Source: Mobula hypostoma (taxonomy: Eukaryota). From it: 64,000 bases of DNA. The stretch's first letter is position 1. Each line of letters opens with the position of its first letter. A program made the position numbers and the translations under genes. Shown here piece after piece: positions 1,582-60,965 of the stretch. Under the pieces are notes generated by a model that was not told where the DNA came from, did not search any database, and was given only the letters and a program-made list of their open reading frames with translations. The stretch spans positions 102,674,001 through 102,738,000 of the forward strand of contig NC_086097.1 in the NCBI RefSeq assembly GCF_963921235.1, given 5' to 3'.

Positions 1582-1585
1582 TTGT

Positions 1586-1670
1586 TGAACTCAGCAGGTC
1601 GGGCAGCATCTGTGGAAACATGTTGCGAGTGTTGCTCTGACCCCAGCATCTGCAGATTATTTTGTATTTG
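1586..1670. repeat. Short remnant of the Penelope terminal-repeat family (inverted and deleted)
   Basis: gaactcagcaggtcgggcagcatctgtgg followed by gtgttgctctgaccccagcatctgcagattatt; both pieces match the repeat at 13806-13974. Confidence 0.6.
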
Positions 1671-13620: not shown

Positions 13621-13805
13621 TCAATCCAAAATGACATTTGGTCACTGGTGAAAGCTGTTTTTCACTGTAGCAACCCACAGCTGGCTTTTCTACTTGGTCT
13701 ATGGATCTGAGTGAAACCCCCTTTTCTCAAAACTTCCGATGTCAGGATTGATCGGTGGTCAAAGATCTTTAGTGACATCGTGTCCCAAGTAAATGGAGGG
13801 AATGG

Positions 13806-13974
13806 GCAGCATCTGTGAAAAAGATCGGTCGATGTTTCAGGTCGGAACCTTTCATCAGGTTCCGGCCCGAAATGTCGACCGATCTTTTCCACAGATGCTG
13901 CTTGACCTGCTGAGTTCCTCCAGCGTGTTGTGAGTGTTGCTTTGACCCCAGCATCTGCAGATTATTTTGTGTTT
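13806..13974. repeat. Penelope terminal-repeat derivative forming an inverted repeat, with degenerate hammerhead core
   Basis: gcagcatctgtgaaaaagatcggtcga ... tcgaccgatcttttccacagatgctgc arms; minus strand reads CTGATGA-aaggttccgacct-GAAAcATC. Confidence 0.7.
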
Positions 13975-24556: not shown

Positions 24557-25254
24557 AAACCCTAAAGTCAACCCGCAAAAAGAGGAGGATTGACAATAGG
24601 TTCAAGCCATGCACCCGGAAAGGGAACAGAACAAACAAGAGATAACGGGAAGGAGAACGCGACCAATAGTTCAGTAATATAAGTAGCCCAAGAGAAAAAA
24701 AACTAAAAAGTGAAGCCCCTCCCACCCACCCTCGAACCCCCAAAGCTAAATCTAAGATAGACCAGCCAGAAAGAAGCAAGCACTAGAACTACCCCTATGA
24801 CTTCCGATAGACACTCGCTAAAAAAGTATATATATAAGAGGATCAGCTAAAGTTATAAAACAGTAGAAAAATTTTAAAAAGTACACCAATTAAAGCAAAC
24901 CCGATATAATATAAAGAAAAAACAGGTAAATATAAAGAAAACCATTAACCAACAACATACCATGTAGTTAAACAAGAAAATAAGACAATTAACATAGACT
25001 AGTGAGGAAAACTACAAAAAGTACGTTTGAAAACTACAAAATTTAAGGCCTTAAAGGAAATACATAAAATGATGCAGAGGAAATAACCACCCAGAATCCC
25101 GAAGGAAAAAGAAAGGAATGATGCAGTTAGAAAAAAATTTGGCAGCCATATTAATTAACCGAAAAAAAACTTTTCTGCCCTCATATAAAGGAAAAAAATT
25201 AAAAAAAACAGATTAACTGCATTCGAACAAATAGAGATGGTTTAATAATTGCGA

Positions 25255-26109
25255 TTAAGATGTTGAAGGCGAAAATTGATCAAGGTAACTCTGGGCTTCC
25301 GATGGAGAGTCGAAAAAACGGGAAGAGCCATCAGGCAAACGAATCTTCAAACGTGCAGGATAAAGCAACACTGGTTTTGAATCCATCTTGTAGAGTTCCA
25401 ACATCACAGATCTATAACGGACACGTTGATCCCGAACCGACTTACTAAAATCCTTTACCAGCCGGAACCGAAGCTGTGAGTAATCAATGTAACCTTTAGG
25501 TCGAGCGAATGGAAGCAATTTCTCCTTGTCTTGAAAATAATGAAATCGTAAAATAACATGCCGAGGTTTATCTGACTTAGACGAATATAATGGGACTCTG
25601 TGAGCCCAATCCAATAGTGGTGGTTGGTCAGGAAATAAGGTAGGGAACGCATCTTTTAAAAGTTGAGAAAAGAACTTTACAGGGTCATCAGATTCAGCAG
25701 CTTCACGAATACCAATAATTCGAATATTCTGTCGTCGCATTCTGCATTCTAAGTCCAAGTTTTTAAAAGTCAGAAAGTCAAGTTTTTTCTTCATTCCAGT
25801 AATTGTCTCTTCAATTTTCCCCATCTTGAGTTCATTTTGTTGTGTGGATTTTTGAAGATTAGATATAGCAGTCTGATGTTCCATGATAGATGTTTCCATT
25901 TTATCGATTACATCAATAATTTTCTGCAGTTTAGTTGAAATTTCCACATGAATCAGATCCGTTATAGTAGTTGAAATTTCCGTTTGAATCAGATCCGATA
26001 TAGCTTTCAAAGTTTACGCTGGTTCAGTCGGAGGAGGATCGGTAACTTTCGGTCTAACCGGAGATTTGCCTTCTTTCCCGTTCTTAGACACGGCAGATCT
26101 TAAAAACAT
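25255..26109 (-). pseudogene. L1 ORF1p (coiled coil plus RRM/CTD)
   Basis: DLECRMRRQNIRIIGI, KPRHVILRF and LYPARLKI motifs; in-frame TAA near 26014 separates the N-terminal part. Confidence 0.88.
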
Positions 26110-27306
26110 CCAAATATCAAAAAAAAAAGAATTTGTTGCAAGGAGTTATGAAAATCGGTGCCTTAATGGTTGGCTTAAATGTAGCTGATCATAGGAAAAA
26201 ACTCAGAGGTAATAGAGCGAGTCAAGAAGATGACTTCAGTCCATGAGCGCTACCGGAAGTCCCCAATTGTTGAAGCTTTCTGACCAAATATGTTATTGTG
26301 AAGATAGATTGAAATAGACAAATAAATAACTGACATTTATTTTCATTGTAATATTTCCTGATTTTTAAAAACTTAGAACTGTCACATTGTATACAACAAG
26401 ACTTACTTTGATTTGTGACTCAAACTTAATGGGAATTAGTCTTGCGGCCTAAGGTAGTTCTGGTGAGCATCTGAGCATGGGCTTGATTGACTACTGTTTG
26501 GGAAATGGGTCAGTTCATCTGAAATGGAGAGATTCCAGGCCCTTTCAGTTCTTTGAATTGCAAATCTACAACATTTTCTAACATAGTTTATTAAAAGCTA
26601 TTATAAAATTCATGGAATTATGTTTGGAGTGAGGTTCATCCTAAACGATTTGAAGTTGCCATGTGATCTGCAAGAAATACCAAATTGTAATTTATGAACT
26701 TCAGAGTTGTAATGGATTTTTGATTTTTGATTTTTAAATGATATTTTGAGTATCCTGCAGTCATCTTCCACTGTTCTGTTGAAGGTTTATCACAAGCAGT
26801 AAGCCCTTGTTATATTCATCACAATGCGAATGTTGTCATTATGTAATCTAATACAAGTGAAAATCAGTGCTGGAAATATTCAGCATGTCCGACTGTAGGG
26901 AAAAGGAATGAAGCAAACATTTCATATCAAAGATCCTTTGTCAGAAAAATGACTTTTGTCACAGATGCAGTTTGACATGCTGAGTACTTCCATAACCTTC
27001 TGTTTTTATTTTATTATCTAAACTATGCAATGAATTGACAGTTATTTGGGTTACATCTGGAATAATTGCAGAACCTTTCCTTAAAATCAATGGACTTTTG
27101 TCAAAAAAAAAGATTTCACTCCAGTTCACCTGGGAGAAATAGTTAACTTGTAAGAAAACTTTATACTTTAGATAGTCTCAGGTAGCCTTGCCATATAGCT
27201 TTCAAAACTATAGTATGGTTAATGTGAATGAAAGGTGAGACATTTGCACCATGTGCTCTCCAGATAGAACATTTGAAGGAATAAATGTACATCTATATAT
27301 TTCCAG

Positions 27307-32777: not shown

Positions 32778-32883
32778 CAACACACATCAAAGTTGCTGGT
32801 GAACGCAGCCTGCCTGGCCTGCTGCGTTCACCAGCAACTTTGATGTGTGTTGCTTGAATTTCCAGCATCTGCAGAATTCCTGT
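32778..32883 (+). mobile_element. 106-bp Penelope terminal-repeat insertion with 5' inversion (hairpin)
   Basis: 14-bp TSD tgaatgtttgcact (32764-77, 32884-97); perfect 32-bp inverted repeat 32778-32809 / 32821-32852. Confidence 0.85.
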
Positions 32884-34971
32884 TGAATGTTTGCACTGAT
32901 ATGCCATTATATTCCTTTCAGATCACAGAATCAGAATTGTACCCCACGTAAATTGACCTTTTGGGCCTACCTCCTCATACCATCCATAATGCCTATAAGA
33001 TCTATTCTCATTTACCCACATCAGGCCCATATCCTCCTTCTCTCTCAAATCCCACTCAAAGTGCCTATCAAGTGCCTTTTAAGTTTTGCAGAGGTACCTG
33101 CCTCCACAACTACTTCTGTGAGCTCATACCAGAAATTATGACTTGCTGTGTTTTTGAAAAAAAACTTGCCCCTCAGATCTTTAAATTTCTCCCATCTCAT
33201 CTTAAAACGTTAGTTTTGGAATACCCTGTCCTGGCAGAAAAACTGATCATCTATCCTATCTATGTAATTTGTAAACCTCTATAAAGTTAGCCTTCAGCCT
33301 CATACACTGTAGTAAGAATAAGGCCAGCCTATCCAATCTCTCATTTTACCTCTAACCCTTCATTTCAGACAACATACTGGTGAAGAGGTGTGGCAATGAG
33401 ATAGCCTAAGTGCTCTGCATTAAAGCATTACTTTTGACATACAGTCTCTATGCTCCTTTTGGAAATACAACAGCTAATTTGTACCCAGCAATTTCCTATA
33501 AGTGATGATTTAATAATTTTCTTAAGAATTGGTAGCAACATTGGAGATAACTTAGCTCTTTAGAAGTAGTGACAGGAGAGTTTTTATGTGTCCCTAAGAG
33601 AGCAAATGATAGGTTGATTTAACATCTGAATGATAACATCGCTGTAGTAAGCTGTTGGGGTATCAGCTGAGAATATTGTGAAATCTCTGGAGTGGAACTG
33701 GAATCTACAATGGACTATCAGCTGATTGCTGACACAGTTAAGATGCAAGAATCAAGTACATTTTTTCCATATGGTACAGTTTTTGAAATTACTGCAATAG
33801 TGTGAATTTGGTGTGTTTGATTAAAATTTCCTGCTAAAATAAGGATTGTGACATTTGGGAGCAGGAACTTACAGGAGAAATTAAGGAAGCAGCCGCTGCT
33901 GAAGTCTCTCTGTGGCACTGATAAGTGTGGAATCTGATTTCCTCAAAGAAAATTAACATAGAGTTGAAACGATCTTTATTGACTTCATTTATTTTAGTGT
34001 TTGGTTATGTTTAAAGTAATTAATAGTTTATCTTATTATGGGCTTTGTCTCTCTCAGTCATAATTGTTCACTTTGGGTGAAGGGACTTGCTGTTGCTTCA
34101 ACAATTACTGCAAACCTGCCACTGAGGGACCATCATTAGAAATATGGAAAATCTGTGGTCAAATAGCGCTGTTTGTAACATTGCCATGTGTTTGTATTCA
34201 CATTGAAACAACACCAAGCTTTTGGAAGGAATTTGTATTCGATTTGGTTTGGATCATAATACAGAATTGCTCCAGATTTTAATTCAATTGTTTTAGTTAA
34301 ACTTAGTGATGTACCAAATCAGTTGTCATTGCTATTGTTCAGGAATGTTTGACCAAAAGCAACTGAGATTGATTTAAATTTTTGGTTCCATCTATTACCC
34401 ATCTAACAACATCTAATTTCTATATGTCATGCATTCCAAGTGAAGGTGCTTTCTGAGGGGATTTGAAATCATTGGTTTTAGACTGTGCATTTATTTAGTA
34501 TTGACAAAAACTAAATTTGTTTGCTTATTGCTTACTTATTTACTTATTGCTTTGTTCATTTCCAGTATTGTTTACCTTTATTACAGCTTTCTTCAGGATA
34601 TCTATTGACACAAAACCAAACACATTGCCTATAATAGGGTGGGGAAAAACTGATCAAAATCAAGATCCTTTATCAGATAAGGGATTAAATGGTTATGGAT
34701 CCATATTTTCACATAGTTTAATTGCACCTAGAAAACTCTTTCATCTCATATAATGGCTGCTGAGGAGTGAAACACCCTAAATCTGTGATCAGTTGTATTC
34801 CACTGGATATGTCTGACAATCTATTTGAAGCAAAGATTTGAGCTTCACATCACCCATAATATGACTTATTGACAGGTAACTGGGTGACTGTCAGGAGAGG
34901 GAAGGGGAATAGACAGAAAGAGCAGAGCACCCCTGTGGCCGTTCCCATCAACAATAAGTATACTGTTTTGG

Positions 34972-35858: not shown

Positions 35859-36313
35859 GGGATTTGATATTTAGGGGGACAGATAAGAGGTTCTGTGGGA
35901 GAGATAGAGAATCCCGGATGGCCTGTTGCCTCCCTGGTGCCAGGATCCACAATATCTCGGATCGAGTTCTCAGTGTTCTCAGGAGAGAGGGTGAGCAGCC
36001 AGATGTTGTGGTCCACATGGAGACCAATGACATAGGTAGGAGTAGGGATGAGGTCCTGAAGAAGGAATATAGGGAGTTAGGAAAGAAGTTAAAAAGCAGG
36101 ACCTCAAAGGAGGTAACCTCAGGATTGCTGCCTGTGCCATGAGACAGAGAGGTTAGGAACAGGAAGGTATGGCAGATGAATGCATGGCTGAAGGGTTGGT
36201 GCAGGGGACAGGGGTTCAGGTTTCTGGATCATTGGGATCTCTTCTGGGGAAGGTCTGACCTGTACAAAAAGGACGGACTGCACCTGAACTGGAAAGGGAC
36301 CAATATCCTGGCG

Positions 36314-37428
36314 CAAACAACAGGAATACTGCAGATGCTGGAAATTCAAGCAACACACATCAAAGTTGCTGGTGAACGCAGCAGGCCAGGCAGCATCTCT
36401 AGGAAGAGGTGCAGTCGACGTTTCAGGCCGAGACCCTTCGTCAGGACTAACTGAAGGAAGAGTGAGTAAGGGATTTAAAAGTTGGAGGGGGAGGGGGAGA
36501 TGCAAAATGATAGGAGAAGACAGGAGGGGGAGGGATAGAGCCAAGAGCTGGACAGGTGATAGGGGATACGAGAGGATCATGGGACAGGAGGTCCGGGAAG
36601 AAAGACAAGGGAGGGGGGGACCCAGAGGATGGGCAAGAGGTATATTCAGAGGGACAGAGGGAGAAAAAGGAGAGTGAGAGAAAGAATGTGTGCATAAAAA
36701 TAAGTAACAGATGGGGTACGAGGGGGAGGTGGGGCCTTAGCGGAAGTGGGGCCTTAGCGGAAGTTAGAGAAGTCGATGTTCATGCCATCAGGTTGGAGGC
36801 TACCCAGACGGAATATAAGGTGTTGTTCCTCCAACCTGAGTGTGGCTTCATCTTTACAGTAGAGGAGGCCGTGGATAGACATGTCAGAATGGGAATAGGA
36901 TGTGGAATTAAAATGTGTGGCCACTGGGAGATCCTGCTTTCTCTGGCGGACAGAGCGTAGATGTTCAGCAAAGCGGTCTCCCAGTCTGCGTCGGGTCTCG
37001 CCAATATATAAAAGGTCACATCGGGAGCACCGGACGCAGTATATCACCCCAGTCGACTCACAGGTGAAGTGTTGCCTCACCTGGAAAGACTGTTTGGGGC
37101 CCTGAATGGTGGTAAGGGAGGAAGTGTAAGGGCATGTGTAGCACTTGTTCCGCTTACACGGATAAGTGCCAGGAGGGAGATCAGTGGGGAGGGATGTGGG
37201 GGACGAATGGACAAGGGAGTTGTGTAGGGAGCGATCCCTGCGGAATGCAAAGAGAGGGGGGGAGGGAAAGATGTGCTTAGTGGTGGAATCCCGTTGGAGG
37301 TGGCGGAAGTTACGGAGAATAATATGTTGGACCCGGAGGCTGGTGGGGTGGTAGGTGAGGACCAGGGGAACCCTATTCCTAGTGGGGTGGTGGGAGGATG
37401 GAGTGAGAGCAGATGTACGTGAAATGGG
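36314..37428 (-). mobile_element. Penelope-like element, 5'-truncated (GIY-YIG endonuclease plus terminal repeat)
   Basis: ORF 36754..37080 FTCES.GVIYCVRC.RC.LLYIGET.RRL..RF.EH...EEQHLIF.LG...P.GMN; host CR1 resumes at gggcaggtttgc. Confidence 0.92.
36413..36448 (-). ncRNA. Minimal type-I hammerhead ribozyme motif
   Basis: Minus strand AGUC-CUGACGA-AGGGUCUCGGCCU-GAAAC-GUC-GACU: stem I AGUC/GACU, conserved core, stem II AGG/CCU, palindromic ACGU stem III, GUC cleavage triplet. Confidence 0.85.
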
Positions 37429-38277
37429 GGGCAGGTTTGCCGGAGCTGTTGGGGAGGGTTTAAACTAGTTTGGCAGGGGAGTGGGAATCAGAATGTGAGT
37501 GCAGGGATTAGGGTAGAAGGACAAGGGCATGATGCTGTGTATTCTGAGTTGGTGAGGAAAGACAGGCAGGGGACAAAACATAAATGTAGCCAGTTAGAGG
37601 GGTTGAAACGTGTCTATTTCAACGCTAGGAGTATTGGAAATAAAGGGGATGAACTTGGAGCATGGATCAGTACAGTACATGGAACTACGATGTTGTGGCC
37701 ATTACTGAAACTTGGCTGGAGGAAGGGCAGGATTGGCTGATGCAGGTACCGGGGTTTTAAAAGGAATAGGATGGGAGGTGGGGGGTGGGCAGTAGTATTA
37801 CTGGTCAGGGATAGTATCATGGCTATAGAAAGGGAGGACGCTGCAGAGGGAGTGTCCACTGAGTCGTGTGGGTGGAAGTCAGAAATAAGGAGGGATCAAT
37901 CACTGTGCTGGGAGTAGTCTATAGGCCCCCAAATAGCCCTCGGGACACCGAGGAGCAGATAAGCAGCCTGACTTTAGAATGGTGCAGGAATTACAAGGTT
38001 GTAGTTATGGGTGATTTTAACTTACTTCATATTGACTGGCACCTCCTGACTGCAAGGGGGATAGATGGGGCTGAATCTGTCAGGTGTGTTCAAGCAGGAT
38101 TCCTGACACAGTACGTGGACCGGCCGACGAGAGGAGAGGCCATACTGGATCTAGTTCTGGGTAATGAACCTGGTCAGGTGGCAGACTTCTTGAGGGAGCA
38201 TTTTGGTGAGAGTGACCACAACTCCCTCAGCTTCAGCATAGCTATGGAAAAGGATAAAAACAGACATTGGGGACATT

Positions 38278-39020
38278 AAATGGGGAAAGAATTCAAAGTT
38301 CTGAGATGCAACGGGACTTGGGAGTCCTCGTACAGGATACCCTTAAAGTTAACCTCCAGGTTGAGTCAGTAGTGAAGAAGGCGAATGCAATGTTGGCATT
38401 CATTTCTAGAGGAATATAGTATAGGAGCAGGGATGTGATGTTGAGGCTCTATAAGGCACTGGTGAGACCTCACATGGAGTACTGTGGCAGTTTTGGTCTC
38501 CTTATTTAAGAAAGGATGTGCTGACGTTGGAGAGGGTACAGGGAAGATTCACTGGAATGATTCCGGGAATGAGAGGGTTAACATATGAGGACGTTTGTCC
38601 GCCCTTGGACTGTATTCCTTGGAGTTTAGAAGAATGAGAGGAGACCTCATAGAAACATTTCGAATGTTAAAAGGCATGGACAGAGTGGATGTGGCAAAGT
38701 TGTTTCCCATGATGGGGGAGTCTAGTACAAGAGGGCATGACTTAAGGATTGAAGGGCGCCCATTCAGAACAGAAATGCGAAGAAATTTTTTTAGAGGGTG
38801 GTGAATCTATGGAATTTGTTGCCACGGGCAGCAGTGGAGGCTAAGTCATTGGGTGTATTTAAGGCAGAGATTGATAGGTATCTGAGTAGCCAGGGCATCA
38901 AAGGTTATGGTGAGAAGGCGGGGGAGTGGGACTAAATGGGAGAATGGATCAGCTCATGATAAAATGGCGGAGCAGACTTGATGGGCCGAATGGCCTTCTG
39001 CTCCTTTGTTTTATGGTCTT
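38278..39020 (+). mobile_element. Younger CR1 3' fragment nested in the host CR1 ORF2
   Basis: RT C-terminus and 3' UTR placed between host SDHN...KDKNR and the resuming KVLNW..ANY sequence. Confidence 0.85.
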
Positions 39021-39606
39021 AAAATGAGAAAGTGCTTAACTGGGAAGGGCTAACTATGAAGGAATGAGGCAGGAATTAGCGAGAGTAAATTGGAAACAGA
39101 TGTTCAAGGGTGAAAGCACAGAAGTAATGTGGAGGAAGTTTAGGGACCACTTGTGCTGGGTTCAGGATAGGTTTGTCCCACTGAGACAAGGAAAAAAATG
39201 ATGGGAAAAGGGAACCGTGGCTGACGAAACACGTGAGGCAACCCGTCAAGAGGAAGAAGGAAGCATATGTTAGATATAAGAAGCAGGAAGCAGGAGGGTC
39301 TCATGAGAAATATAGGATAGTCAGGAAGGAGCTTAAGAAAGGACTTAGGAGAGCTCGAAGGGGGCATGAGAAGGCCTTGGCATATAAGATTAAGGAGAAC
39401 CCCAAGGCATTCTATGCGTACGTGAAGAACAGAAGGATGACAAGAATGAAGGCGAAAGGATAAAGAAGGCAACATGTGCCTGGAGGCGGAGGAGGTTGAG
39501 AAGGTCCTAAATGAATACTTTGCTTCAGTATTTACAAGTGAAGAGGACCTTGATCAGGGTGAGGTTGAAATAGAACAGGCCTGTGTGCTGGACAATGTGA
39601 AGATTA

Positions 39607-39800
39607 CAACTCCTTCCTTGGATGGTCAGACACCCTGAGCCAATAGGCTAGTCCTGGACTTACTTCATAATTTACTGGCATAATTTACATATTACTATTT
39701 AACTATTTATGGTATTATTACTACTTATTATTTATGGTGCAACTGTAACGAAAACCAATTTCCCCCGGGATCAATAAAGTATGACTGTGACTATGACTAT
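39607..39800 (+). mobile_element. Rex1/Babar-like 3' tip nested in CR1
   Basis: 7-bp TSD aagatta (39600-06, 39801-07); same 3' UTR and (atgact)n tail as 35445-35610. Confidence 0.85.
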
Positions 39801-41523
39801 AAGATTAAGGAAGAAGTAGTGTTGGATCTTCTTAAAAACATCAAGATTGATAAGTCCCCAGGGCTGGATGTGATATACCCCAGGTTGCTGTGGGAAGTGA
39901 GAGAAGAGATTGCTGGAACAGTAGCTATGATCTTTGAAGCTTCTTTGGTTGTAGGGGAGGTGCCGGAGGATTGGAGAATGGCAAATGTAGTTTCCTTGTT
40001 TAAAAAAGGTAATAGGGAGAATCCTGGGAACTATAGACCGATGAGTCTTGTGTACAAACTATTGGAAAGGATTCTTAAGGATAGGATCTACAAGCATTTG
40101 GAGAAGTACACTCTACTCAAGGATAGTCAACATGGCTTTGTGAAGGGAAGGTCGTGCCTCACAAGCCTAATTGAGTTTTTTGAAGAGGTAACAAAAGAAA
40201 TTGATGAGGGTAGGGCAGTAGATGTGGTCAACATGGATTTTAGCAAGGCATTTGACAAGGTCCCCCACGAGAAACTCGTCCAGAAAGTCATGAGGCATGG
40301 GATCAGTGGAACCTTGGCTGTTTGGATAAAAAATTGGCTTACAGGAGGAAAGCAGAGGGTAGTAGTGGAAGGAAAGTATTCTGCCTGGAGTTCGGTGACT
40401 AGTGGAATGCCGCAAGGATCTGTCCCGGGACCCCTGCTCTTTGTGATTTTTATAAATGACCTGAATAAAGAGGCAGAAGGATGGGTGAGTAAGTTTGCAG
40501 ATGACTTGAAGATTGGAGAAGTTGTGGATGGAGCTGTAGGTTGTCAAAGGGTACAAGAGGATATAAACAGGATGCGGAGTTGGACAGAAAAGTGGCAGAT
40601 GGAGTTCAATCCAGATAAGTGTAAGTGTGAGTTTAAGAGTGTGGATGAACAGAGGAACCTTGGGGTTCAAATCCATACATCTCTCAAGGTCGCTGCACAG
40701 GTCGATAGGATAGTTAAGAAGGCCTATGGGATGCTAGGCTTCATTAATAGGGGGATTGAGTTCAAGAGTAGAGAGGTCATGTTGCACTCTACAAATCTCT
40801 GGTGAGACCACACTTAAGAGTATTGCGTTCAGTTCTGGTCACCTCATTATAGGAAGAATGTGGAGGCTATGGAGAGGGTGCAGAGGAGATTTATCAGGAT
40901 GTTGCCTGGATTGGAAAACAAGTCTTATGAGGCAAGTTGACCAGAGCTGGGACTTTTCTCTTTGGGGCGTAGAATGATGAGAGGGGACTTGATAGAGGTC
41001 TGCAAGATTATGAGAGCCATGGATAGGGTGGATAGCCAGTACCTGTTTCCCAGGGCATGAATAGCAAACACCAGAGGGCATATGTACAAAGTTAAGGGAG
41101 GGAAGTTTAGGGGAGACATCAGGGGTAAGTTTTTTACACAGAGGGTTGTGGGTGACTGGAATGACTTGCCAGGGATGGTGGTGGAGGCTAAAACATTAGG
41201 GGTGTTTAAGAGCCTCTTGGACAGGCACATGGATGAAAGAAAAATGGAGGGTTACGGAGTAGTATGGGTTTAGTACTTTTTAGGAATATATGGGTCAGCA
41301 CAACATCAAGGGCCAAAGGGCCTGTACTGTGCTGTAGTATTCTAGTGTCTTGTGTCTCGTGACAGAACCAGGTCTAAATGTTGTTTCAGTTGTACCAGAC
41401 TTGTGTTATCATTTTGTTTAATGTGGCATTTTTTAAAGAATAGTTCAGTGGTTAGAGCTGTTAACTCAGTGTCAGAGACCCCAGTTCAATGCTTGTTGAA
41501 TTTGCACATTCTCCTTGTGATCA

Positions 41524-43196
41524 TCACATAAATAATCTTCTGGAAATAGTAGGGGACAGAGGGTCTAGTGAGATGGAGGAACTGAGGGAAGTGGTGTTAG
41601 GTAAATTGAAGGGATTAAAGGCAGATAAATCCCCAGGGCCAGATGGTCTGCATCCCAGAGTGCTTAAGGAAGTAGCCCAAGAAATAGTGGATGCATTAGT
41701 GATAATTTTTCAAAACTCTTTAGATTCTGGACTAGTTCCTGAGGATTGGAGGGTGGCTAATGTAACCCCAGTTTTTAAAAAAGGAGGGAGAGAGAAACCG
41801 GGGAATTATAGACCGGTTAGCCTAACATCGGTGGTGGGCAAAATGCTAGAGTCAGTTATCAAAGATGTGATAACAGCACATTTGGAAAGTGGTGAAATCA
41901 TCAGAGAAAGTCAGCATGGATTTGTGAAAGGAAAATCATGTCTGACGAATCTCATAGAATTTTTTGAGGATGTAACTGGTAGAGTGGATAGGGGAGAACC
42001 AGTGGATGTAGTATATTTGGATTTTCAAAAGGCTTTTGACGAGGTCCCACACAGGAGAATAGTGTGCAAACTTAAAGCACACGGTATAGGGGGTAAGGTA
42101 TTGATGTGGATAGAGAATTGGTTGGCAGACAGGAAGCAAAGAGTGGGAATAAACGGGACCTTTTCAGAATGGCAGGCAGTGACTAGTGGGGTACCGCAAG
42201 GCTCAGTGCTGGGACCCCAGTTGTTTACAATATATATTAATGACTTAGATGAGGGAATTAAATGCAGCATCTCCAAGTTTGCAGGTGACACGAAGCTGGG
42301 CGGCAGTGTTAGCTGTGAGGAGGATGCTAAGAGGATGCAGGGTGACTTGGATAGGTTAGGTGAGTGGGCAAATTCATGCAGATGCAATTTAATGTGGATA
42401 AATGTGAGGTTATCCATTTTGGTGGCGAAAACAGATTATTATCTGAATGGTGGCCGATTAGGAAAAGGGGAGGTGCAACGAGACCTGGGTGTCATTATAC
42501 ACCAGTCATTGAAAGTGGACATGCAGGTACAGCAGGCGGTGAAAAAGGCGAATGGTATGCTGGCATTCATAGCAAGAGGATTCGAGTACAGGAGCAGGGA
42601 GGTACTACTGCAGTTGTACAAGGCCTTGGTGAGACCACACCTGGAGTATTGTGTGCAGTTTTGGTCCCCTAATCTGAGGAAAGCCATCCTTGCCATAGAG
42701 GGAGTACAAAGAAGGTTCACCAGATTGATTCCTGGGATGGCAAGACTTTCAGATGATGAAAGACTGGATCGACTAGGCTTATACTCGTTGGAATTTAGAA
42801 GATTGAGGGGGGATCTTATTGAAACGTATAAAATCCTAAAGGGATTGGACAGACTAGATGCAGGAAGATTGTTCCCGATGTTGGGGAAGTCCAGAACGAG
42901 GGGTCACAGTTTGAGGATAAAGGGGAAGCCTTTTAGGACCGAGGTTAGGAAAAACTTCTTCACACAGAGAGTGGTGAATGTGTGGAATTCTCTGCCACAG
43001 GAAACAGTTGAGGCCAGTTCATTGGCTATATTTAAGACGGAGTTAGATATGGCCCTTGTGGCTAAAGGAATTGGGGGTATGGGGGGAAGGCTGGTATAGG
43101 GTTCTGAGTTGGATGATCAGCCATGATCATACTGAATGGCGGTGCAGGCTCAAAGGGCCGAATGGCCTACTCCTGCACCTATTTTCTATGTTTCTA
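41524..43196 (+). mobile_element. 5'-truncated CR1 inserted into a tRNA-SINE (halves about 41443-41523 and 43197-43440)
   Basis: RT ORF 41489..43099 and (ttctatgt) tail. SINE A/B boxes lie upstream and the SINE core tgggcttcc..ggtgctctgg..cctcccacatcccaaag resumes downstream. Confidence 0.9.
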
Positions 43197-43490
43197 TGGG
43201 CTTCCATGGGTGCTCTGGCTACCTCCCACATCCCAAAGTCATGCAGATGGGTTGATTATCTGGCTGCTATAAATTGCCCCTTTGTGTTTGAATAGTAGAA
43301 TCAGGTGTGAGTTGATGAGAGTGTGGGGAGAACAAAGTGGCGTTTATCGAGGATTGCTGTAAATGCATCGTAGCTGATGGACATGGAGGGAGTTCCATGG
43401 TGGTTGATGATTGAAAGCGCTTGTTTTTTTCTGTGCTGCATATCTCTGACATCATTTTGATCAGTTTTCCTTTTTCCCTGTTTACTTTAG

Positions 43491-43584
43491 ACAACTACGA
43501 TCCAATCATTATGCATCCTGACCTCGGCTGTGGCACTCATATAGGAAGCTGTGGGCATGTGATGCATGCCACCTGCTGGCAAAA
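43491..43584 (+). CDS. UBR1: UBR1 coding exon 8, RING core ([32 protein letters not shown])
   Basis: Polypyrimidine tract plus ttag| acceptor, |gtaagt donor; 94 nt. GSCGHxMHxxCWQ RING-H2 motif. Confidence 0.96.
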
Positions 43585-43919
43585 GTAAGTTAATACAAGA
43601 ATGTGCTGTGCATCTTTCAGATCCAGTGCTGGGAATGAGTTTTGATTTGTCATTAATGTTCATCTTTGTGTCAGAGTACTAAAACCACTTCTAAAATTCA
43701 TATCTAAAATTAAGGCCAAATGCATCTCAGTATCTCCCATGTTCACGTGCTGAGCTACTAAAAATAGTTGGTGGTTTTTAACTATTAACAACAGTCCTTC
43801 TGTTATAAAATAGCTTACAGAGCCAGCTACAATCCTTACTGACATTTTCTTTCCAGGAGCTGCCACCTGAAACTCTCCATCCCCAAGTACCTTTGCAACA
43901 ATTTGTTGAAAAAAAAAAG

Positions 43920-45330
43920 TGGAGATGGCCAAAAGATCAGCATGGACATGATGGGCTGAAGGGCCCATTTCTGTATCCTGTTCCTCAATAGATAAAGGAG
44001 TAGCATGAACATGTATCCTGCTCCTCAATAGATACAGGAGTAGGCCCCACCATTCAATATCATTATGGCTGATCCATGCTGACCTCAAATCCTCTTCTGT
44101 ACCGATTTTCCATTACCTTAATTCTTCTACCTTTTGCATATTTATGTGTCTCCACCGTAAATGTATCTGATGACTAGGCCTTCACTATCCTTGGTGGGGG
44201 GGGGGGCAGAGAATTCCAGAAACTCATTCCCGTCTCAGAGAAGGAACTTAACAAATCTGCATTTCAGTTTTTAATGGATGGCCCCTTATTTTGTAGCTAT
44301 GTCCTCTTGTTTGTGATTCTTCTAAAGGGTGGAAACACATCAATATCTACCCTGTAACGCACTCTTTCATTTCTTGTGTTTAAATAAAGTTGCCTGTTGT
44401 TCTAACCTTAGTGAATACAGAACCAAACTACCTAACTTGTTTTGATAGGACAACTTTCTCATTTCATGAATTAGCCTGGTGAATTTCCTCCAATGCCACT
44501 ATAAGACCTTAAGATATAGAAGCAGATGCAGGCAATTCAGCCCATCGAGTCTGCTCCACCATTCAATCATGGGCTGATCCAATTCTTCCAGTCATCTCCA
44601 CTCCCCTGCTTTCACCCCATGCCCTTTGATGCCCTGGCTAATCAAGAACCTATCTATCTCTGCCTTAAATGCACCCAATGACTTGGCCTCCACAGCCGCT
44701 CATGGCAACAAATTCCACAGATTTACCACCCTCTGACTAAAGTAATTTCTCCGCATCTCAGTTTTAAATGGACGTCCTTCAATCCCGAAGTCGTGCCCTC
44801 TTATCCTAGAATCCCTTACCATGGGAGATATTACTACGTCGACTCAGGCCTCGGGGGCTGGCGTCAGGCAAAATGGGAGATAACTTTGCCATATCTAATC
44901 TGTTGAGGCTTTTTAACATTCTGAATGTTTCTATGAGATCCCCCCTCATTCTCCTGAACTCCAGGACATACGGCCCAAGAGCTGCCAGATGTTTCTCATA
45001 CAGTAACCCTTTCATTCCTAGAATCATTCTCGTGACTCTTCTCTGAACCCTATCCAACGTCAGTATATCCTTTCTAAAGTAAGGAGCCCAAAACTGCACA
45101 CAATACTCCAAATACACACTGCATCCTTTTTAAGATAATAGACCAAAATTATGCACAGGATTTGAGGTATGACTTTACCAACACCTTGTCCAACTGACAC
45201 CAAACCTCGCTGTACTTGAACTTCAACAACTTCACAATAAATGATATCATGCCATTTGCTGTCTTACCAGGAAAGTGAATGAAGGCAAGGTTGTGGATGT
45301 TGTCTACATGGACTTCAGTACGACTGTAGA
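43920..45330 (-). mobile_element. Nested CR1 3' fragments (old copy interrupted by a younger copy at about 44500-45110)
   Basis: YLEYCVQFWAPY...RGDLIETF (44806..45117) and CR1 3' UTRs on the minus strand. Confidence 0.75.
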
Positions 45331-45854
45331 CCATAAGATATAGGAGCAGAATTAGGCCATTTGGCCCATTGAGTCTGCTTCACCATTCAATCATGGCTGA
45401 TCCTTTTTCCGCTCCTCAGCCGCATTCTTGGCCTTCTCCCTTTAGCCTTTGATACCGTGTCCAATTAAGAACCTAGCAATCTCTGCCTTAAATACACCCA
45501 GCGACCTGGCCTTCAGCTGCCTATGGTAACAGAAACCACAAATCCACCACACTCTGGCCAAAGAAATTTTTCTGCATCTGTTTTAATAGGACACCCCTCT
45601 CTCCAGAGGCTGTGCCCTCTTGTCCTGGTCTCCCCCACCATGGGAAACATCCTTTCCACATCTACTATATTTAGGCCTTTCAACATTAGAAAGGTTTCAA
45701 TGAGCTCCTTCCCCCCCCACCCCCATCCTTCTAAATTCCAATGAATACAGACTCAGAGCTATCAAACGTTCCTTGTAAGATATCCATTTCATTCCCATAA
45801 TCATCCTTGTGAATCTCATCTGAACCCTGTCCAATGCCAACACATTTTTTCTTA

Positions 45855-46727
45855 GCAACACACATCAAAGTTGCTGGTGAACGCAGCAGGCCAGGCAGCA
45901 TCTGTAGGAAGAGGTGCAGTCGACGTTTCAGGCCGAGACCCTTCGTCAGGACTAACTGAAGGAACAGTGAGTAAGGGATTTGAAAGTAGGAGGGGGAGGG
46001 GGAGATCCAAAATGATAGGAGAAGACAGGAGGGGGAGGGATAGAGCCAAGAGCTGGACAGGTGATAGGCAAAAGGGGATACGAGAGGATCATGGGACAGG
46101 AGGTCCGGGAAGAAAGACAAGGGGGGGGGGGACCCAGAGCATGGGCAAGAGGTATATTCAGAGGGACAGAGGGAGAAAAAGGAGAGTGAGAGAAAGAATG
46201 TGTGCATAAAAATAAGTAACAGATGGGGTACGAGGGGGAGGTGGGGCCTTAGCGGAAGTTAGAGAAGTCGATGTTCATGCCTTCAGGTTGGAGGCTACCC
46301 AGACAGAATATAAGGTGTTGTTCCTCCAACCTGAGTGTGGCTTCATCTTTACAGTAGAGGAGGCCGTGGATAGACATGTCAGAATGGGAATGGGATGTGG
46401 AATTAAAATGTGTGGCCACTGGGAGATCCTGCTTTCTCTGGCGGACAGAGCGTAGATGTTCAGCAAAGCGGTCTCCCAGTCTGCGTCGGGTCTCGCCGAT
46501 ATATAAAAGGCCACATCGGGAGCACCGGACGCAGTATATCACCTCAGTCGACTCACCTGGAAGGACTGTTTGGGGCCCTGAATGGTGGTAAGGGAGGAAG
46601 TGTAAGGGCATGTGTAGCACTTGTTCCGCTTACACGGATAAGTGCCAGGAGGGAGATCAGTGGGGAGGGATGGGGGGGGGACGAATGGACAAGGGAGTTG
46701 CGTAGGGAGCGATCCCTGCGGAATGCG
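45855..46727 (-). mobile_element. Penelope-like element, second copy (GIY-YIG plus terminal repeat)
   Basis: ORF 46249..46620 VIYCVRCSRCGLLYIGET...; nearly identical to 36349-37248. Confidence 0.92.
45918..45953 (-). ncRNA. Minimal type-I hammerhead ribozyme motif
   Basis: Identical 36-mer to 36413-36448. Confidence 0.85.
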
Positions 46728-50216: not shown

Positions 50217-51158
50217 TTAACAATCCCTCAAACCAGGCTCCAACTTAGCAAACTTCATAGTGGCCAAAAACACTGATGAATTGTGATCAGTGTAACCTCT
50301 CATTGGGTTTCGTCCCGGACCACAATAACAAGGGTTGTCCCATTCCGACTTAGTTTTCTCTCGCAAGGGCTTAGTAGGAGGGGGAGGGGTGGTAACTGCA
50401 GAGTTATTGCAAAACTTCCTACAGTACCCCACCATCTCCAAGAGCCTTCTGAGGGCCCACTCGTCTGTCGGGGTTGGGATGTCAGAGATAGCCCGCACTT
50501 TAGCTTGCATCGCTGCCAGCTGCCCCTGTGTTACCACAATTCCCAGATAAGTGACCTTCGTGTGGCCGAACTCATTTTTTTCAAGGTTCACTATCAAGCT
50601 GGCTTCAGACAGCCGTATCACATCGCCAATACACACTTCTGTGTTCGTCAGCCCTTTCGTCACTGAATTACTCATTCTATGGGGTTGTTGCTCACTAGGC
50701 TGACCTAGCGTAACAAACACCACCCAACGTCCCAGTTCTTTGCATCGCCTTGGGACAATCAAACACACGTGTGTGAGTCGTTTAATTACTTCTCCTAAAG
50801 AGTCGCTTTGTTCGGGGATTAAGGGAGAGACCTTATCAGCAGAGCTGGCCAAAACAATAGCCTTCTCCCATCTGGTCGATACCATACTCATCTTTTCAAA
50901 ATGGTGTTTTTTTCTTATCAGGGGAACCCTAGCTTCATTGATTTCCGCACTAACACCGACTAGGTTTGTTAGCATATCAAAAGCCTGTGACCGTCTCAGT
51001 TCGCGTTTGCCATAATCAATAACATCCTTCCTCCTGTGCAGCCAGTAAACCTCTTTCATGATTCCACCAACTGTTTCCTCCAGTACCTCAAAATGTCCAC
51101 CGAGGGGTACCTTGTGGGCCAGGTTAAAAATCTCCTCCCCATAACTCTTTTGCACCAC
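50217..51158 (-). pseudogene. Deleted pol remnant: integrase zinc-binding start fused to RT C-terminus
   Basis: LAH.VPLGGH...YW...RKDV (integrase N-terminus) followed by L.VNLEK.EF....VTYLG and LRRLL.MVGYCRKF (RT); catalytic cores absent. Confidence 0.75.
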
Positions 51159-51357
51159 CCCCCATTCCTCATCTGTGGGTACGGTACTTGGTCCTCCCTT
51201 TCCTCCTTAGCACTTCCTCCTCCACACAATAGCCTACTGGCTCCCTTCTTAATTCTGCATCAGAGAGAGCTGTCTCCGCCAAAACCATCAGCCCCTCGTC
51301 TCGCTCCTGCGCCTGCACAAATTCCTTCCTGGCTAATGCTAAGTCTTTCTCAGCTCC

Positions 51358-53127: not shown

Positions 53128-53171
53128 TCTTTCGGGAATTTTAACCCAATTTACTCTGTCCCAAATTTGGC

Positions 53172-53197
53172 GTTCAAAATCGCGGACAAGAACCCCA
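53172..53197 (-). promoter_or_regulatory. Primer-binding site, tRNA-Pro-like
   Basis: Minus strand TGGGGTTCTTGTCCGCGATTTTGAAC resembles the tRNA-Pro complement TGGGGGCTCGTCCGGGATTTGAAC and lies 45 nt upstream of gag. Confidence 0.7.
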
Positions 53198-53319
53198 CTC
53201 TAGATTATGTATTAAATTGAACTGCTGCTGCTAAGTTAACAAAGTCACATGCTGGTGATAATAAACCTGATTCTGATTCTGATCTTCTGATAAATGGCTA
53301 TGCTTCGAGGGAAAAAGGC

Positions 53320-55639: not shown

Positions 55640-57875
55640 ACTACTGGAAGGAAAAATTGATATTAATGTCATCAGGTTAGAGCCTACTAACCATTCAGGA
55701 ATGACTGCCTCCATTCAGGGCTTCACCTGCAAATCTGTTAGGGTCATCTTTGACCATAAGACATAGCAGAATTAGGCCATTCAGCCCATTGAGTCTGCCC
55801 TACCATTTCATCATGGCTGATCCTGGATCCCATTCAACCCTATATACCTTCCCTCTCACATATCCCTTGAAACCCCAACCAATCAGGAATCTATCAACTT
55901 CTGCTCTAAATATACCCATGGACTTGCCTTCCACTGCAGTCTGTGGCAGAGCATTCCACATATTCACTACTCTTTGGCTTAAAAAACATTCCTCCTTACT
56001 TCTGTTCTAAAGGATCACCCCTGTGCCCCCTAGTTCTGGATACCCCCACCATAGGAAACATCCTCTCCACATCCACCTTATCTAGTCCTTTCAACATTCG
56101 GTAGGTTTCAGTGCATTTTCCTAGATTCCAGTGAGTACAGGCCCAAAGCTGCCAAACGCTCCTCATATGTTAACCCATTCATTCAGAATCATCCTCTTGA
56201 ACCTCCCCTGGGCTCTCTCCAATGACAATGCATCCTTTCTGACACAAAACTGCTGACAGTATTCCAAGTGCAGCCTGACTAGTGTCTTATAAAGCTTCAG
56301 CATTATCTCCTTGTTTTTGTATTCTGTTCCCCTTGAAATAAATGCCAACATTGCATTTGCCTTCGTTACGAGACTCAACTTGTAAATTAACCTTCTCGGA
56401 GTCTTCCACGAGCTCTCCCAACTCCCTCTGCACCTCTGATGTTTGAACCTTCTCCCCATTTAGAGTCCACACTATTGTTCCTTTTACCAAAATGCATTAT
56501 CATACATTTCCCAACATGGTATTCCATTTGCCACATTTTTGTCCATTCTTCCAATTTGTCTAAGCCCTGCTGCAATTGCATTGCTTCCTCAGCACTACCT
56601 ACCCCTCCACCTACCTTCGTATCATCTGGAAACTTTGCAACAAAGCTATCAATTCCACTATCTAAATCATTGACAAGCATTATGAAAAGTAGTTGCCCCA
56701 ATACTGACCCTTGAGGAACACCACTAGTCACTGGCAGGCAACCAGATAAGGCCCCTTTTATTCCCACTCACTACCTCCTGCCTGTCAGCCATTCCTCTAT
56801 CCATGCCAGTATCTGTCCTGTAACACCATAGGATTTTATCTTGTTAAGCAGCCTCATGTATGGCATCTTACCAAATGCCTTCTGAAAATCTAACAAAATG
56901 ACATCCACTGCCTCTCTTTTGTCCATCCTGCTTATTACTTCCTCGAAGAATTCTAACAGATCTCAGGCAAGATTTCCCTTTACAGAAACCATGCTGACTT
57001 TGACATTATTTCATTAGTCACCAAATACCCCAAAACATCATCCTTAATAATGTTCTCTTAACACTTTCCCAACCACTGAGGTTAGGCTAACTGGCCTATA
57101 ATTTCCATGCTTTTGTCTTCCTGTGGAGTGGCATTTGCAATTTTTCAGTCCTCCAGGACTATGCCAGGATTAAGTGATTCTTGAAAGATCATGCATGACC
57201 AATGTATCCATTATCTCTTCAGCAACCTCTCTCAGGAGTCTGGGATGTAACTGTTGTATCCGGTGCTCCCGATGTAGCCTCCTGTGCATTGTTGAGACCC
57301 AGTGTAAATTGGGGGACTGCTTTGTTCAGCACCTCTGCTCCATTCCTAAAATGCAGAATTTTCATTCCTCTCCCCATCCCATTCCAACATGTCAGTCCAT
57401 AGCCGCTTGTTTTGTCATGATGAGGCCACTCTCAAGGGACAACACCTCATATTTTGTCTTTGTTGCCTCCAACCTGTACTACATCAATTTCAGCTTTCAG
57501 TAATTTTTGTTTCTCTTTTTTCTTCTCCCCTCTCCCTCCTCTTCTATTCCCTACTCAGGTCTTTTACAACTTCTCTTCAGCTGCCTTTCACCCCCCCCCC
57601 CCCGCCCAGTCCCCTCTTCTTCCCTTTCTCTTGTGGTCCACTTCCTTCTCTTATCAGATTCCTACTTTTCCAGCGCTTTACCTTTCCCACCTATATGGCC
57701 TTATCTATCATCTTCTAGCTTTCACTCCATCTCCTCACCCACCTTTTTATCCTGGCTTCTTCCCAATTCCTTTCCAATCCTGATAAAGGATCTCAGCCTG
57801 AAATGTCGACTATTTATTCATTTTCGTAGATGCTGCCTGACCTGCTGAATTCCTTCAGCATTTTGTGTGTTTAGC
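55640..57875 (+). mobile_element. Old Penelope-like element split by a minus-strand CR1 (about 55751-57250)
   Basis: FTCKSVRVI at about 55722-55749 continues as CIRCSRCSLLCIVET after 57250; terminal repeat with decayed hammerhead at 57776-57811. Confidence 0.75.
55751..57250 (-). mobile_element. CR1 fragment (RT and 3' UTR)
   Basis: SGVPQGSVLG...KFPDDTKVGG (56387..56767); (ccataaga) tail. Confidence 0.87.
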
Positions 57876-60435: not shown

Positions 60436-60471
60436 AGTCCTGACGAAGGGTCTCAGCCTGAAACGTCGACT
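60436..60471 (+). ncRNA. Minimal type-I hammerhead ribozyme motif, sense to the UBR1 pre-mRNA
   Basis: AGUC-CUGACGA-AGGGUCUCAGCCU-GAAAC-GUC-GACU; predicted cleavage after 60467. Confidence 0.85.
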
Positions 60472-60570
60472 GCACCCCTTCCTACAGATGCTGCCTGGCC
60501 TGCTGCGTTCACCAGCAACTTTTATGTGTGTTGTTTGAATTTCCAGCATCTGCAGAATTCCTGTTGTTTG
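60437..60570 (+). mobile_element. 134-bp solo Penelope terminal-repeat insertion carrying a hammerhead
   Basis: 15-bp TSD cactggtcatatata (60422-36, 60571-85); near-perfect reverse complement of 36314-36447. Confidence 0.9.
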
Positions 60571-60965
60571 CACTGGTCATATATATTTTGTTTCCAACAT
60601 CTGTAGTTAATTGCTTTTCAATTAATAACCTCACTACTGTTGATTTTTTTAAAAATTAAAAATATGTTCAAAAGGTGTTTCCACTTTCCCACTTAAATCT
60701 TTTGATCTGTTTTTTTATTTTATCCTGGCTTCCTTGCTTGTTACCCTGATCTATTCCTATCTGTGCTCTATTCCAGAGGCCTGTCACTGACATTCCAATA
60801 CTGCACTCTCAAAACTGTCAATTAGGTTCAGCTGAGATAAGTTTAAACCAAGTGGAATGCAAATCTAGTATTGGAAAGACAACCAAATAACCAGCTTCAC
60901 AGTTTTAGAAAATGTAAATAGTATGAGAATTCTCTTCATAACGTTCAATCTGTTGTGTATTGCAG

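What the first reader, a model, noticed from the sequence alone, without database searches (positions are those of the whole stretch)
36413..45953. Identical hammerhead ribozymes in the terminal repeats of two GIY-YIG Penelope copies
Seen: both minus-strand Penelope copies carry the same 36-nt hammerhead (36413-36448 and 45918-45953) about 300 nt downstream of the endonuclease stop. This links the ribozyme physically to the coding element. With 60436-60471 that makes three intact cores, plus decayed ones at about 13830-13860, 26915-26945 and 57776-57811, so about six in 64 kb. Inference: if this density is typical, the genome holds a very large, probably unannotated ribozyme family spanning several age classes.
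Basis: partly seen in the sequence, partly recalled or inferred. Interest (0 to 1): 0.7.

Follow-up and report, generated by a model that had tools for sequence, protein, structure and literature searches.

The report
Known Penelope hammerhead in ray genome
These are real copies of the small hammerhead ribozyme motif that Penelope-type jumping genes are already known to carry at their ends, here in broken copies in a ray-like fish genome, so the catch is correct but ordinary in kind and notable mainly for its abundance.

Summary
The 36-nt motifs at 36413-36448 and 45918-45953 (minus strand) are identical and lie 305 and 295 nt past a GIY-YIG stop; 60436-60471 differs by one loop base. [quoted passage not shown] The carrier is probably Neptune clade, in a batoid (best hit Mobula).

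'Identical' means little: the copies differ by only 1.9%, so P = 0.51. Both copies are 5'-truncated, lack RT and have one hammerhead each. Stem covariation is clear across related elements from other animals but not shown among ray subfamilies. Public contigs show a huge family whose motif outlasts both flanks.

Three intact copies run 68 or 104 nt past the scissile bond, so they were copied from RNA not cut there. This matches the known 'tail' and internal RT initiation (Frangieh 2024). Cleavage was not tested. Five of six listed cores are supported; 26.9 kb is only a remnant. The scan has noted this family repeatedly in this genome and others. Verdict: new member of a known kind.

The parts
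36413..36448 (-). Minimal type I hammerhead, copy 1. Stem I AGUC/GACU, core CUGACGA, extra A, stem II GGGU/GCCU, GAAA, loop-less palindromic stem III (CG), predicted cut between 36417 and 36416.
36754..37449 (-). C-terminal part of the Penelope-like ORF, copy 1: CX2-5CxxC linker plus GIY-YIG endonuclease. 5'-truncated at about 37425-37449; the RT core is absent.
36449..36753 (-). Pyrimidine-rich 3' spacer of 305 nt between stop and hammerhead. It ends in a pyrimidine tract plus AG next to stem I.
36313..36412 (-). Sequence 3' of the hammerhead, including the optional ~36-nt tail (about 36313-36348). 36313 is the long 3' end.
   Evidence: loose ends at 36312 in 53 contigs of run X9
45918..45953 (-). 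Minimal hammerhead, copy 2, identical to copy 1.
45854..46726 (-). Copy 2 as a whole: 5'-truncated linker plus GIY-YIG with an internal deletion and frameshift near 46554, ending at the short 3' end without the tail. It is inserted in a LINE remnant with a small target deletion and no long TSD.
60436..60571 (+). Solo stub: intact hammerhead plus long tail, starting at the 5' edge of stem I, flanked by a 14-15 bp target-site duplication.
57237..57871 (+). Old-subfamily copy: decayed GIY-YIG, a different spacer, decayed hammerhead at 57776-57811 (30 of 36 identical to copy 1; G8 lost), short 3' end.
13804..13973 (.). Inverted (head-to-head) stub of another subfamily. Partial hammerhead on minus at 13830-13859 and a 3' half on plus from about 13858; tail on one side only; 14-bp TSD.
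32778..32885 (.). Inverted stub of the young subfamily without a hammerhead: short-end arm inverted against a long-end arm; 14-bp TSD.
26866..27002 (.). Heavily decayed inverted stub with a broken hammerhead remnant at about 26915-26945 (minus).
   Evidence: nhmmer E 0.0085 and 0.00083; not found by the covariance model
1582..1667 (.). Inverted tail-only stub of the 13.8 kb subfamily, without a hammerhead.

Best explanation
These are the 3' ends of 5'-truncated, non-functional insertions of a very abundant endonuclease-positive Penelope-like retrotransposon family, probably Neptune clade, in a batoid genome. Each end carries the standard minimal type I hammerhead.

Shown here: the motif, its position, its structural conservation across the clade, two preferred 3' ends 36 nt apart, and inverted stubs with 14-15 bp TSDs.

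Inferred from published work: in the active tandem (pLTR-ORF-pLTR) element the motif is a weak, conditional self-cleaving RNA. As a monomer it has no stem III and folds into a rod that buries the core. It needs a second hammerhead (pairing through the ACGU palindrome) or the element's own protein to cut and process multimeric transcripts. Reverse transcription starts internally at one of two sites downstream of the cut site, on RNA that was not cut there. That is why the genomic copies keep the whole hammerhead plus 68 or 104 nt. The window's copies are lone passengers that decay after insertion, largely at CpG sites.
For: Motif fit: it matches the published consensus (CUGANGAH, G10.1-C11.1, palindromic 15.2-16.2). 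The family variant at 36425 (29% of depth in X1, 21% in X9) turns the G-U at 10.1-11.1 into the canonical G-C and stabilises stem II.

Clade conservation: in 48 eligible loci of 80 related PLE loci, a core-only search with no pairing asked gave 20 sense hits, against 1 antisense and 0.31 per shuffle. 14 of the 20 had both stems of at least 3 bp, against 0 of 94 in shuffles. In 14 non-ray motifs 7 of 8 pairs change on both sides, and 93.8% of cells pair against 21-50% for slid controls. L017 has two direct 358-nt repeats, each with a hammerhead, 3152 nt apart around a 936-codon ORF.

Subfamily conservation: young versus old ray subfamily, hammerhead 30 of 36 identical, spacer 124 of 259, next 17 nt 6 of 17. 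Contig alignments break at both edges of the motif (458 and 419 contigs) into sequence matching the old subfamily.

Ends and fold: 3' ends lie 104, 68 and 104 nt past the scissile bond, matching the 30-40 bp tail and internal initiation on unprocessed RNA. The monomer MFE pairs the core with CGUC.
Against: No cleavage evidence of any kind: no raw RNA reads were available. No full-length ray element was obtained (no genome held; two searches found nothing), so tandem architecture is inferred from relatives at about 45-50% amino-acid identity.

28 of 48 eligible related loci had no exact core within 600 nt, and 6 of the 20 core hits failed the stem test. Among ray subfamilies no two-sided stem change was seen. 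The hammerhead's excess conservation over the endonuclease ORF is not significant (6/36 vs 87/274 mismatches, P = 0.08). With the upstream spacer included, ViennaRNA gives stems I and II a probability of 0.01 or less. The motifs in the covariation alignment were first picked with a pairing descriptor, so one search is partly circular; one search is the non-circular test. The clade call rests on a linker motif and a shared hammerhead, not on an RT tree.
Confidence: 0.88

Rival explanations
1. The motif is kept in this lineage as a structural signal (protein binding, translation start or splice-site context) and no longer cleaves.
For: All three intact copies derive from RNA not cut at this hammerhead. 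In Anolis, catalytic mutants do not affect insertion in vitro and RNA-seq shows no ends at the cut site. 8 of 9 Xenopus dimer elements did not cleave. No pile of ends at 36416/36417 among the 12 of 1,780 loose-end rows shown. A 20-nt block just downstream is about as conserved as the core.
Against: Across relatives the invariant positions are exactly the catalytic ones while stems covary. The Anolis motif does cleave with protein present and shows C3/G8 rescue.
Confidence: 0.25
2. The short hammerhead-plus-tail units are a separate non-autonomous (SINE- or retrozyme-like) family that starts at the hammerhead and is mobilised by the Penelope-like protein.
For: 60436-60571 starts at the 5' edge of stem I and has a clean TSD. 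Summed contig depth is about 3-fold higher over hammerhead and tail (22-33 million) than over most of the ORF and spacer (3-15 million, one bin 21 million). The first-listed joint in X1 links an inverted tail to 36447, and two more joints start at 36448.
Against: Other stubs break elsewhere (32778-32885, 1582-1667, 13.8 kb). The loose-end pile at 36448 has a consensus matching the old subfamily's spacer, so subfamily divergence explains it and much of the depth step. The tool states that depth is no copy number. No tandem array was seen among the copies found in the window.
Confidence: 0.12
3. Individual copies have been co-opted by the host and act as ribozymes in host transcripts.
For: Database gene models of Mobula and Hypanus include this region or the ORF as exons (P0024-P0026, P0002, P0006). 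19,108 contigs of a probable RNA run lay on it.
Against: The copies are young or decaying, lone, and two sit inside other repeats. Identity between them is explained by age. The RNA label of X9 is a guess, and the gene models are predictions.
Confidence: 0.03

Closest known systems
[quoted passage not shown]
   Same: Core CUGANGA plus an extra nucleotide, G10.1-C/U11.1, GAAA, loop-less palindromic CG stem III, short stem I, U-rich 5' flank. It lies 3' of the GIY-YIG ORF, occurs mostly as single motifs on 5'-truncated copies, and is very numerous.
   Different: No cartilaginous fish appears in Table S1 or in the Fig. S3 rows I read. Stem II is short (4 bp). The young subfamily mostly has G-U at 10.1-11.1. 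The extrapolated density (9,700-137,000 intact cores per Gb) may exceed the coelacanth and Xenopus counts, but the methods differ.
Neptune-clade PLEs, e.g. the Acropora digitifera Neptune hammerhead of Fig. S3 in PMC4209133; clade features from Craig et al. (bioRxiv 10.1101/2021.04.23.441226; 12 passages read)
   Same: CX2-5CxxC linker before a C-terminal GIY-YIG, 5' truncation, inverted copies and a one-sided 30-40 bp tail. Related locus L018 carries a core and stems identical to the published Acropora Neptune motif.
   Different: Only about 45-50% amino-acid identity to those relatives. The spacer is about 300 nt against about 90-140 nt in most relatives (L017 also about 305). The two EN-bearing copies sit in LINE remnants, not (TA)n.
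Poseidon element PAc of Anolis carolinensis (Frangieh et al. 2024, PMC11167929; read parts 1-2 of 4)
   Same: Hammerhead upstream of two preferred 3' ends that define the tail; insertions copied from uncut RNA; AT-rich flanks.
   Different: A different PLE clade. The ends here fall in UG-rich, not AC-rich, sense sequence. Whether the ray ORF starts inside the hammerhead is unknown.
Non-LTR retrozymes of animals (Cervera and De la Pena 2020, PMC7229834, passages read; Li et al. bioRxiv 10.64898/2026.07.22.740005, parts 1-3 of 5 read, supplements closed)
   Same: Type I hammerhead derived from PLE termini. Li et al. report them in the one chondrichthyan genome they sampled.
   Different: Retrozymes are tandem arrays. 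The copies found here are dispersed monomers or inverted stubs.

Membership tests
min-HHR of Penelope-like elements | Complete catalytic core (CUGANGA, GAAA, UH) | tested here: met
   Three copies have the full core. A model built from non-ray relatives scores them E 1e-8 to 3e-7.
min-HHR of Penelope-like elements | Extra nucleotide before stem II, G10.1-C11.1 pair, palindromic 15.2-16.2 with no loop III | tested here: met
   Extra A and CG palindrome are present. The pair is G-U in the window copies and G-C in 21-29% of family depth.
min-HHR of Penelope-like elements | Compensatory changes in stems I and II | tested here: met
   Met across the clade. Not shown among ray subfamilies, where only a one-sided U/C change and loop changes were seen.
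min-HHR of Penelope-like elements | Located in both flanking pseudo-LTRs of a full-length element | tested here: inconclusive
   Window copies are 5'-truncated with one 3' motif each, and no ray full-length copy was available. Relative L017 shows the two-hammerhead architecture.
min-HHR of Penelope-like elements | Weak self-cleavage as dimer or with protein | not testable with these tools
   Needs an in vitro assay or raw RNA reads. The raw runs offered were DNA, and the two laid held next to none of the family.
EN+ Penelope-like element | C-terminal GIY-YIG endonuclease in one ORF with a PLE-type RT | tested here: met
   GIY-YIG in the window. Close homologues at 65-90% identity and full-length relatives carry RVT_1 plus GIY-YIG. 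RT itself is truncated away in the window.
EN+ Penelope-like element | Optional 30-40 bp tail and inverted 5'-truncated copies | tested here: met
   Ends 68 vs 104 nt past the cut site. Inverted stubs at 1.6, 13.8, 26.9 and 32.8 kb, two with 14-bp TSDs.
Neptune clade | CX2-5CxxC linker between RT and EN (shared with Nematis) | tested here: met
   CKRNKCYTC in the window ORF, and the motif in 15 of 16 homologues at that position; definition.
Neptune clade | RT phylogeny groups with named Neptune references | not tested
   No named reference sequences were at hand. Indirect support: L018 shares the published Acropora Neptune hammerhead, and Li et al. found only Neptune and Poseidon in vertebrates.
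Non-LTR retrozyme | Tandem repeat with a hammerhead in each unit | tested here: not met
   All copies found by blastn, nhmmer and the covariance model are dispersed monomers or inverted stubs.
Rfam hammerhead families | Score against Rfam hammerhead models | tested here: not met
   No hammerhead family among 20 hits at E<=5 in the window or 2 hits at E<=10 in 36300-36520.

The most novel reading that the evidence does not exclude
In this ray family the 5' edge of the hammerhead is a real RNA boundary or template-switch point, marked by a pyrimidine tract plus AG that abuts stem I in two subfamilies. A ~136-nt hammerhead-plus-tail unit would then be retrotransposed in its own right and make up one of the largest ribozyme families in any vertebrate. 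Its tens of thousands of 5' junctions would record in vivo whether, and how often, the Penelope hammerhead cuts.
Probability: 0.12. Interest if true: 0.55.

Novelty: new member of a known kind. Interest (0 to 1): 0.2.

Why it matters
The kind is known, so the finding mostly adds a lineage. My searches of the held library found no paper describing the hammerhead of cartilaginous-fish PLEs; subscription papers and the Li et al. supplements were not visible. Rfam does not detect the motif.

The useful point is scale. The role of hammerheads in endonuclease-positive PLEs is stated to be unclear, and a young, very high-copy family gives a natural data set. Insertion ends can be mapped against the scissile bond, and subfamily consensuses can be compared for core conservation. 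The element's exon-like intrusion into predicted ray genes is also an annotation hazard.

Tried and rejected
- Own genome: none held, so no genome-wide count and no full-length ray element.
- Exact-pattern scans for the ray motif: 0 hits in metagenome contigs and 0 in viral contigs. The protein scan of viral contigs gave 38 pattern matches and 0 confirmed relatives.
- Raw-read runs X21 and X22 held 2 and 0 matching reads, so they give no test. X1 and X9 are contigs and cannot show ends, strand or copy number.
- 'Identical, therefore selected' is rejected.
- Rfam hits to mir-6536/mir-2 at 32.8 kb and PrrB/RsmZ at 36.4 kb are below gathering score and reflect an inverted stub and purine runs.
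- Folding z-scores of the motif (-1.2) and tail (-1.7) are not significant.
- A protein search with the reading frame that is open across hammerhead and tail found only 3 host gene models among 35 candidates and no PLE N-terminus, so the ORF start is unresolved.
- A splice joint to the acceptor-like AG was not among the 15 of 424 joints shown, and the AG is not kept next to stem I in the 13 invertebrate-type relatives inspected.
- Rows dropped: 32 of 80 loci were ineligible (ORF end or 300 nt of downstream DNA missing). L005 was left out of the model alignment because of its long stem II. Near-duplicate motifs (L015, L036, L047, L067 and the inverted second copies) were not aligned.
Full report
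OBSERVATION. The two 36-mers at 36413-36448 and 45918-45953 (minus strand) are identical, and 60436-60471 (plus) differs at one loop II base. They read as stem I (AGUC/GACU), core CUGACGA, one extra A, a 4-bp stem II with a 4-nt loop, GAAA, a loop-less CG stem III and a GUC cleavage triplet. A descriptor finds exactly these three in the window and none in 100 dinucleotide shuffles. Both minus-strand motifs follow a Pfam GIY-YIG frame by 305 and 295 nt. Of the three decayed cores listed, 13830-13859 and 57774-57814 are the fourth and fifth hits of an independent covariance model (E 4e-4 and 0.08). 26915-26945 is not among its 31 hits, but it is a homologous remnant by nhmmer (E 0.0085). The identity of the two cores carries no signal, because the copies differ by only 16 substitutions in 864 aligned bases, giving P = 0.51 for 36 identical bases. 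Rfam has no hammerhead hit.

THE CARRIER. The best protein hits are from Mobula (90% identity), Hypanus, Rhincodon, Stegostoma and Chiloscyllium, so the host is a cartilaginous fish, most likely a batoid. No genome was held. Copies 1 and 2 cover only the linker and endonuclease; they begin at about 37425-37449 and 46726 and lack the RT core. Each has one terminus and one hammerhead, and each sits inside a LINE remnant without a long target duplication. A third endonuclease-linked copy at 57237-57871 belongs to an older subfamily. The CX2-5CxxC linker is present; Craig et al. give it as the mark of Neptune and Nematis (passages). Li et al. found only Neptune and Poseidon in vertebrates. Neptune is therefore likely, but no RT tree was made.

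ENDS AND STUBS. The three intact copies end 104, 68 and 104 nt past the predicted scissile bond. The 36-nt difference is the optional 30-40 bp tail of PLE insertions. Frangieh et al. tie that tail to two internal RT start sites on unprocessed RNA. In run X9, 53 contigs have loose ends at 36312 with an AT-rich, low-agreement consensus, which fits a true 3' terminus joined to many AT-rich targets. Short stubs at 60436, 32778 and 13804 have 14-15 bp target duplications. Those at 1.6, 13.8, 26.9 and 32.8 kb are inverted pairs. It follows directly that the three intact copies were templated by RNA that had not been cut at this hammerhead, or had been rejoined.

IS THE STRUCTURE CONSERVED? Within rays the evidence is indirect. 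Young against old subfamily, the motif is 30 of 36 identical, the spacer 124 of 259 (P 6e-5), the next 17 nt 6 of 17 (P 0.001), and the endonuclease ORF 187 of 274 (P 0.08, not significant). The spacer is low-complexity and aligns poorly, and a 20-nt block further downstream is as conserved as the core.

In DNA run X1, 215,587 of 34.2 million contigs lay on the 821-nt stretch at 80% identity or better. Two of its six listed loose-end piles fall exactly at the two edges of the motif (458 contigs at 36448, 419 at 36412), with consensus sequences matching the old subfamily's flanks. Of the 40 variant sites shown (80 more were not), my hand count gives 1 in the 36-nt motif, 21 in the 305-nt spacer, 16 in 347 nt of ORF and 2 in the 100 nt downstream. 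The one in the motif converts G-U to the canonical G-C at 10.1-11.1 (29% and 21% of depth). No two-sided change was seen among ray copies.

Across the clade the evidence is strong. Of 80 related loci from metagenome contigs, 48 had the ORF end and enough downstream DNA. A search for the core alone gave 20 sense hits, 1 antisense hit and 0.31 per shuffle; 14 of the 20 had both stems, against 0 of 94 shuffled hits. 28 loci had no exact core, a few of them a one-mismatch one. In 14 non-ray motifs 7 of 8 pairs change on both sides, with 93.8% of cells paired against 21-50% in slid controls; these were preselected for pairing, so this count is partly circular. A model built from those 14 alone picks out the ray motifs. 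L017 has the full architecture, two direct 358-nt repeats with hammerheads 3152 nt apart around a 936-codon ORF. L018 carries a core and stems identical to the published Acropora digitifera Neptune motif.

MECHANISM. Shown: anatomy, position, clade-level covariation and two 3' ends. Computed: the monomer's lowest-energy fold keeps stems I and II but pairs the core with the CGUC segment into a rod (-11.7 kcal/mol against -7.7 for the open hammerhead). With the upstream spacer included, both stems are disfavoured. Inferred from the literature: such motifs cut weakly, as dimers through the ACGU palindrome or with the element's protein, and cleavage is not needed for insertion in vitro. The likely role is processing of multimeric transcripts of the active tandem element. 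The window's copies are lone passengers. Nothing here tests cleavage: no raw RNA reads were available and contigs cannot show ends. The main rival is a conserved but non-cutting structural role (0.25). A separate hammerhead-plus-tail stub family is possible (0.12). It has in its favour the stub at 60436 that starts at stem I, joints at 36447-36448 and higher depth over motif and tail; subfamily divergence explains much of that.

ABUNDANCE. Three intact cores in 64 kb extrapolate to 47,000 per Gb (95% Poisson interval 9,700-137,000), and six cores to 94,000 per Gb (34,000-204,000). This is one window and assumes random spacing. The contig count supports a very large family, but the tool's depth is not a copy number. 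Earlier notes of this scan on the same genome (41 fit the look-up, 8 shown) and on other genomes describe the same family and give tens of thousands of intact copies. Those are unchecked AI notes and I do not count them as evidence. One of them (e1-7790562) reports a stub starting at the cut site, which I could not check; the rows shown have no pile at that position.

COMPARISON AND NOVELTY. The motif meets every sequence and structure feature of the min-HHR of Cervera and De la Pena 2014 that I could test (text parts 1-2 of 4 and supplement parts 1-2 of 3 read). That paper already reports these motifs in Xena, Poseidon and Neptune elements of fishes, about 4,000 in coelacanth and 9,000 in Xenopus, mostly as single motifs of truncated copies. 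No cartilaginous fish is in the table or alignment rows I read. Searches for Penelope + shark + ribozyme, Penelope + Mobula, Penelope + elasmobranch + transposable elements, and hammerhead ribozyme + Chondrichthyes found no description of this family. Li et al. 2026 report non-LTR retrozymes in one chondrichthyan (supplements closed), and a whale shark preprint notes Penelope-like expansion (two passages). Subscription papers and Repbase were not searchable.

VERDICT. A correct observation of a known kind in a lineage I did not find described: new member of a known kind, interest 0.2. Its value is as material for asking whether PLE hammerheads cut in vivo.

Noticed in passing
window 36449-36465 (-) and 57755-57777 (+): A pyrimidine tract followed by AG abuts the 5' strand of stem I in both ray subfamilies, like a splice acceptor. 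In D. virilis Penelope the intron's 3' end maps to helix I. It is not kept in the invertebrate-type relatives, and no splice joint was among the rows shown.
   Followed up: partly
window 36333-36399 (-), 60486-60551 (+), 13893-13956 (+): An 8-9 bp inverted repeat downstream of the hammerhead is kept in two subfamilies. It would close a stem-loop containing the short 3' end, a candidate protein-binding or RT-start structure. The sequence is identical in both, so there is no covariation.
   Followed up: partly
P0024, P0025, P0026, P0002, P0006, P0022: Database gene models of Mobula, Hypanus and Rhinoraja contain translated pieces of this element (hammerhead plus tail, or RT/EN) inside named host genes. 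These are either exonisation or annotation artefacts.
   Followed up: no
P0005 residues 509-522: A Stegostoma gene model reads through the spacer and ends in a peptide that looks like a translated hammerhead, hinting that shark relatives carry the motif at the same place.
   Followed up: no
window 50220-53199 (-): Gypsy-like LTR retroelement remnant: gag-like ORF with SCAN, zinc knuckle and a weak protease match, followed by a fragment with a weak integrase zinc-binding match.
   Followed up: no
window 20789-26013 (-): Fragmented L1-like element with an ORF1-like frame, endonuclease and RT frames, judged by eye from the translations.
   Followed up: no
L048, L049, L058, L060 (220-440 nt past the ORF end): A group of related PLE loci has hammerhead-like cores followed by CCGC or CGGC and UA in which the standard stem I pairing fails. 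This may be a hammerhead variant with a different stem III register.
   Followed up: no
L016:260-360 and L017:269-430: In L016 the first ATG of the long ORF lies inside the hammerhead core, close to the arrangement reported for Anolis Poseidon. In L017 it lies about 130 nt downstream of the cut site.
   Followed up: no
window 36313-37449 and 45854-46726: The two endonuclease-bearing copies lack the 14-15 bp target duplications seen on three short stubs, and copy 2 removed several target bases.
   Followed up: partly
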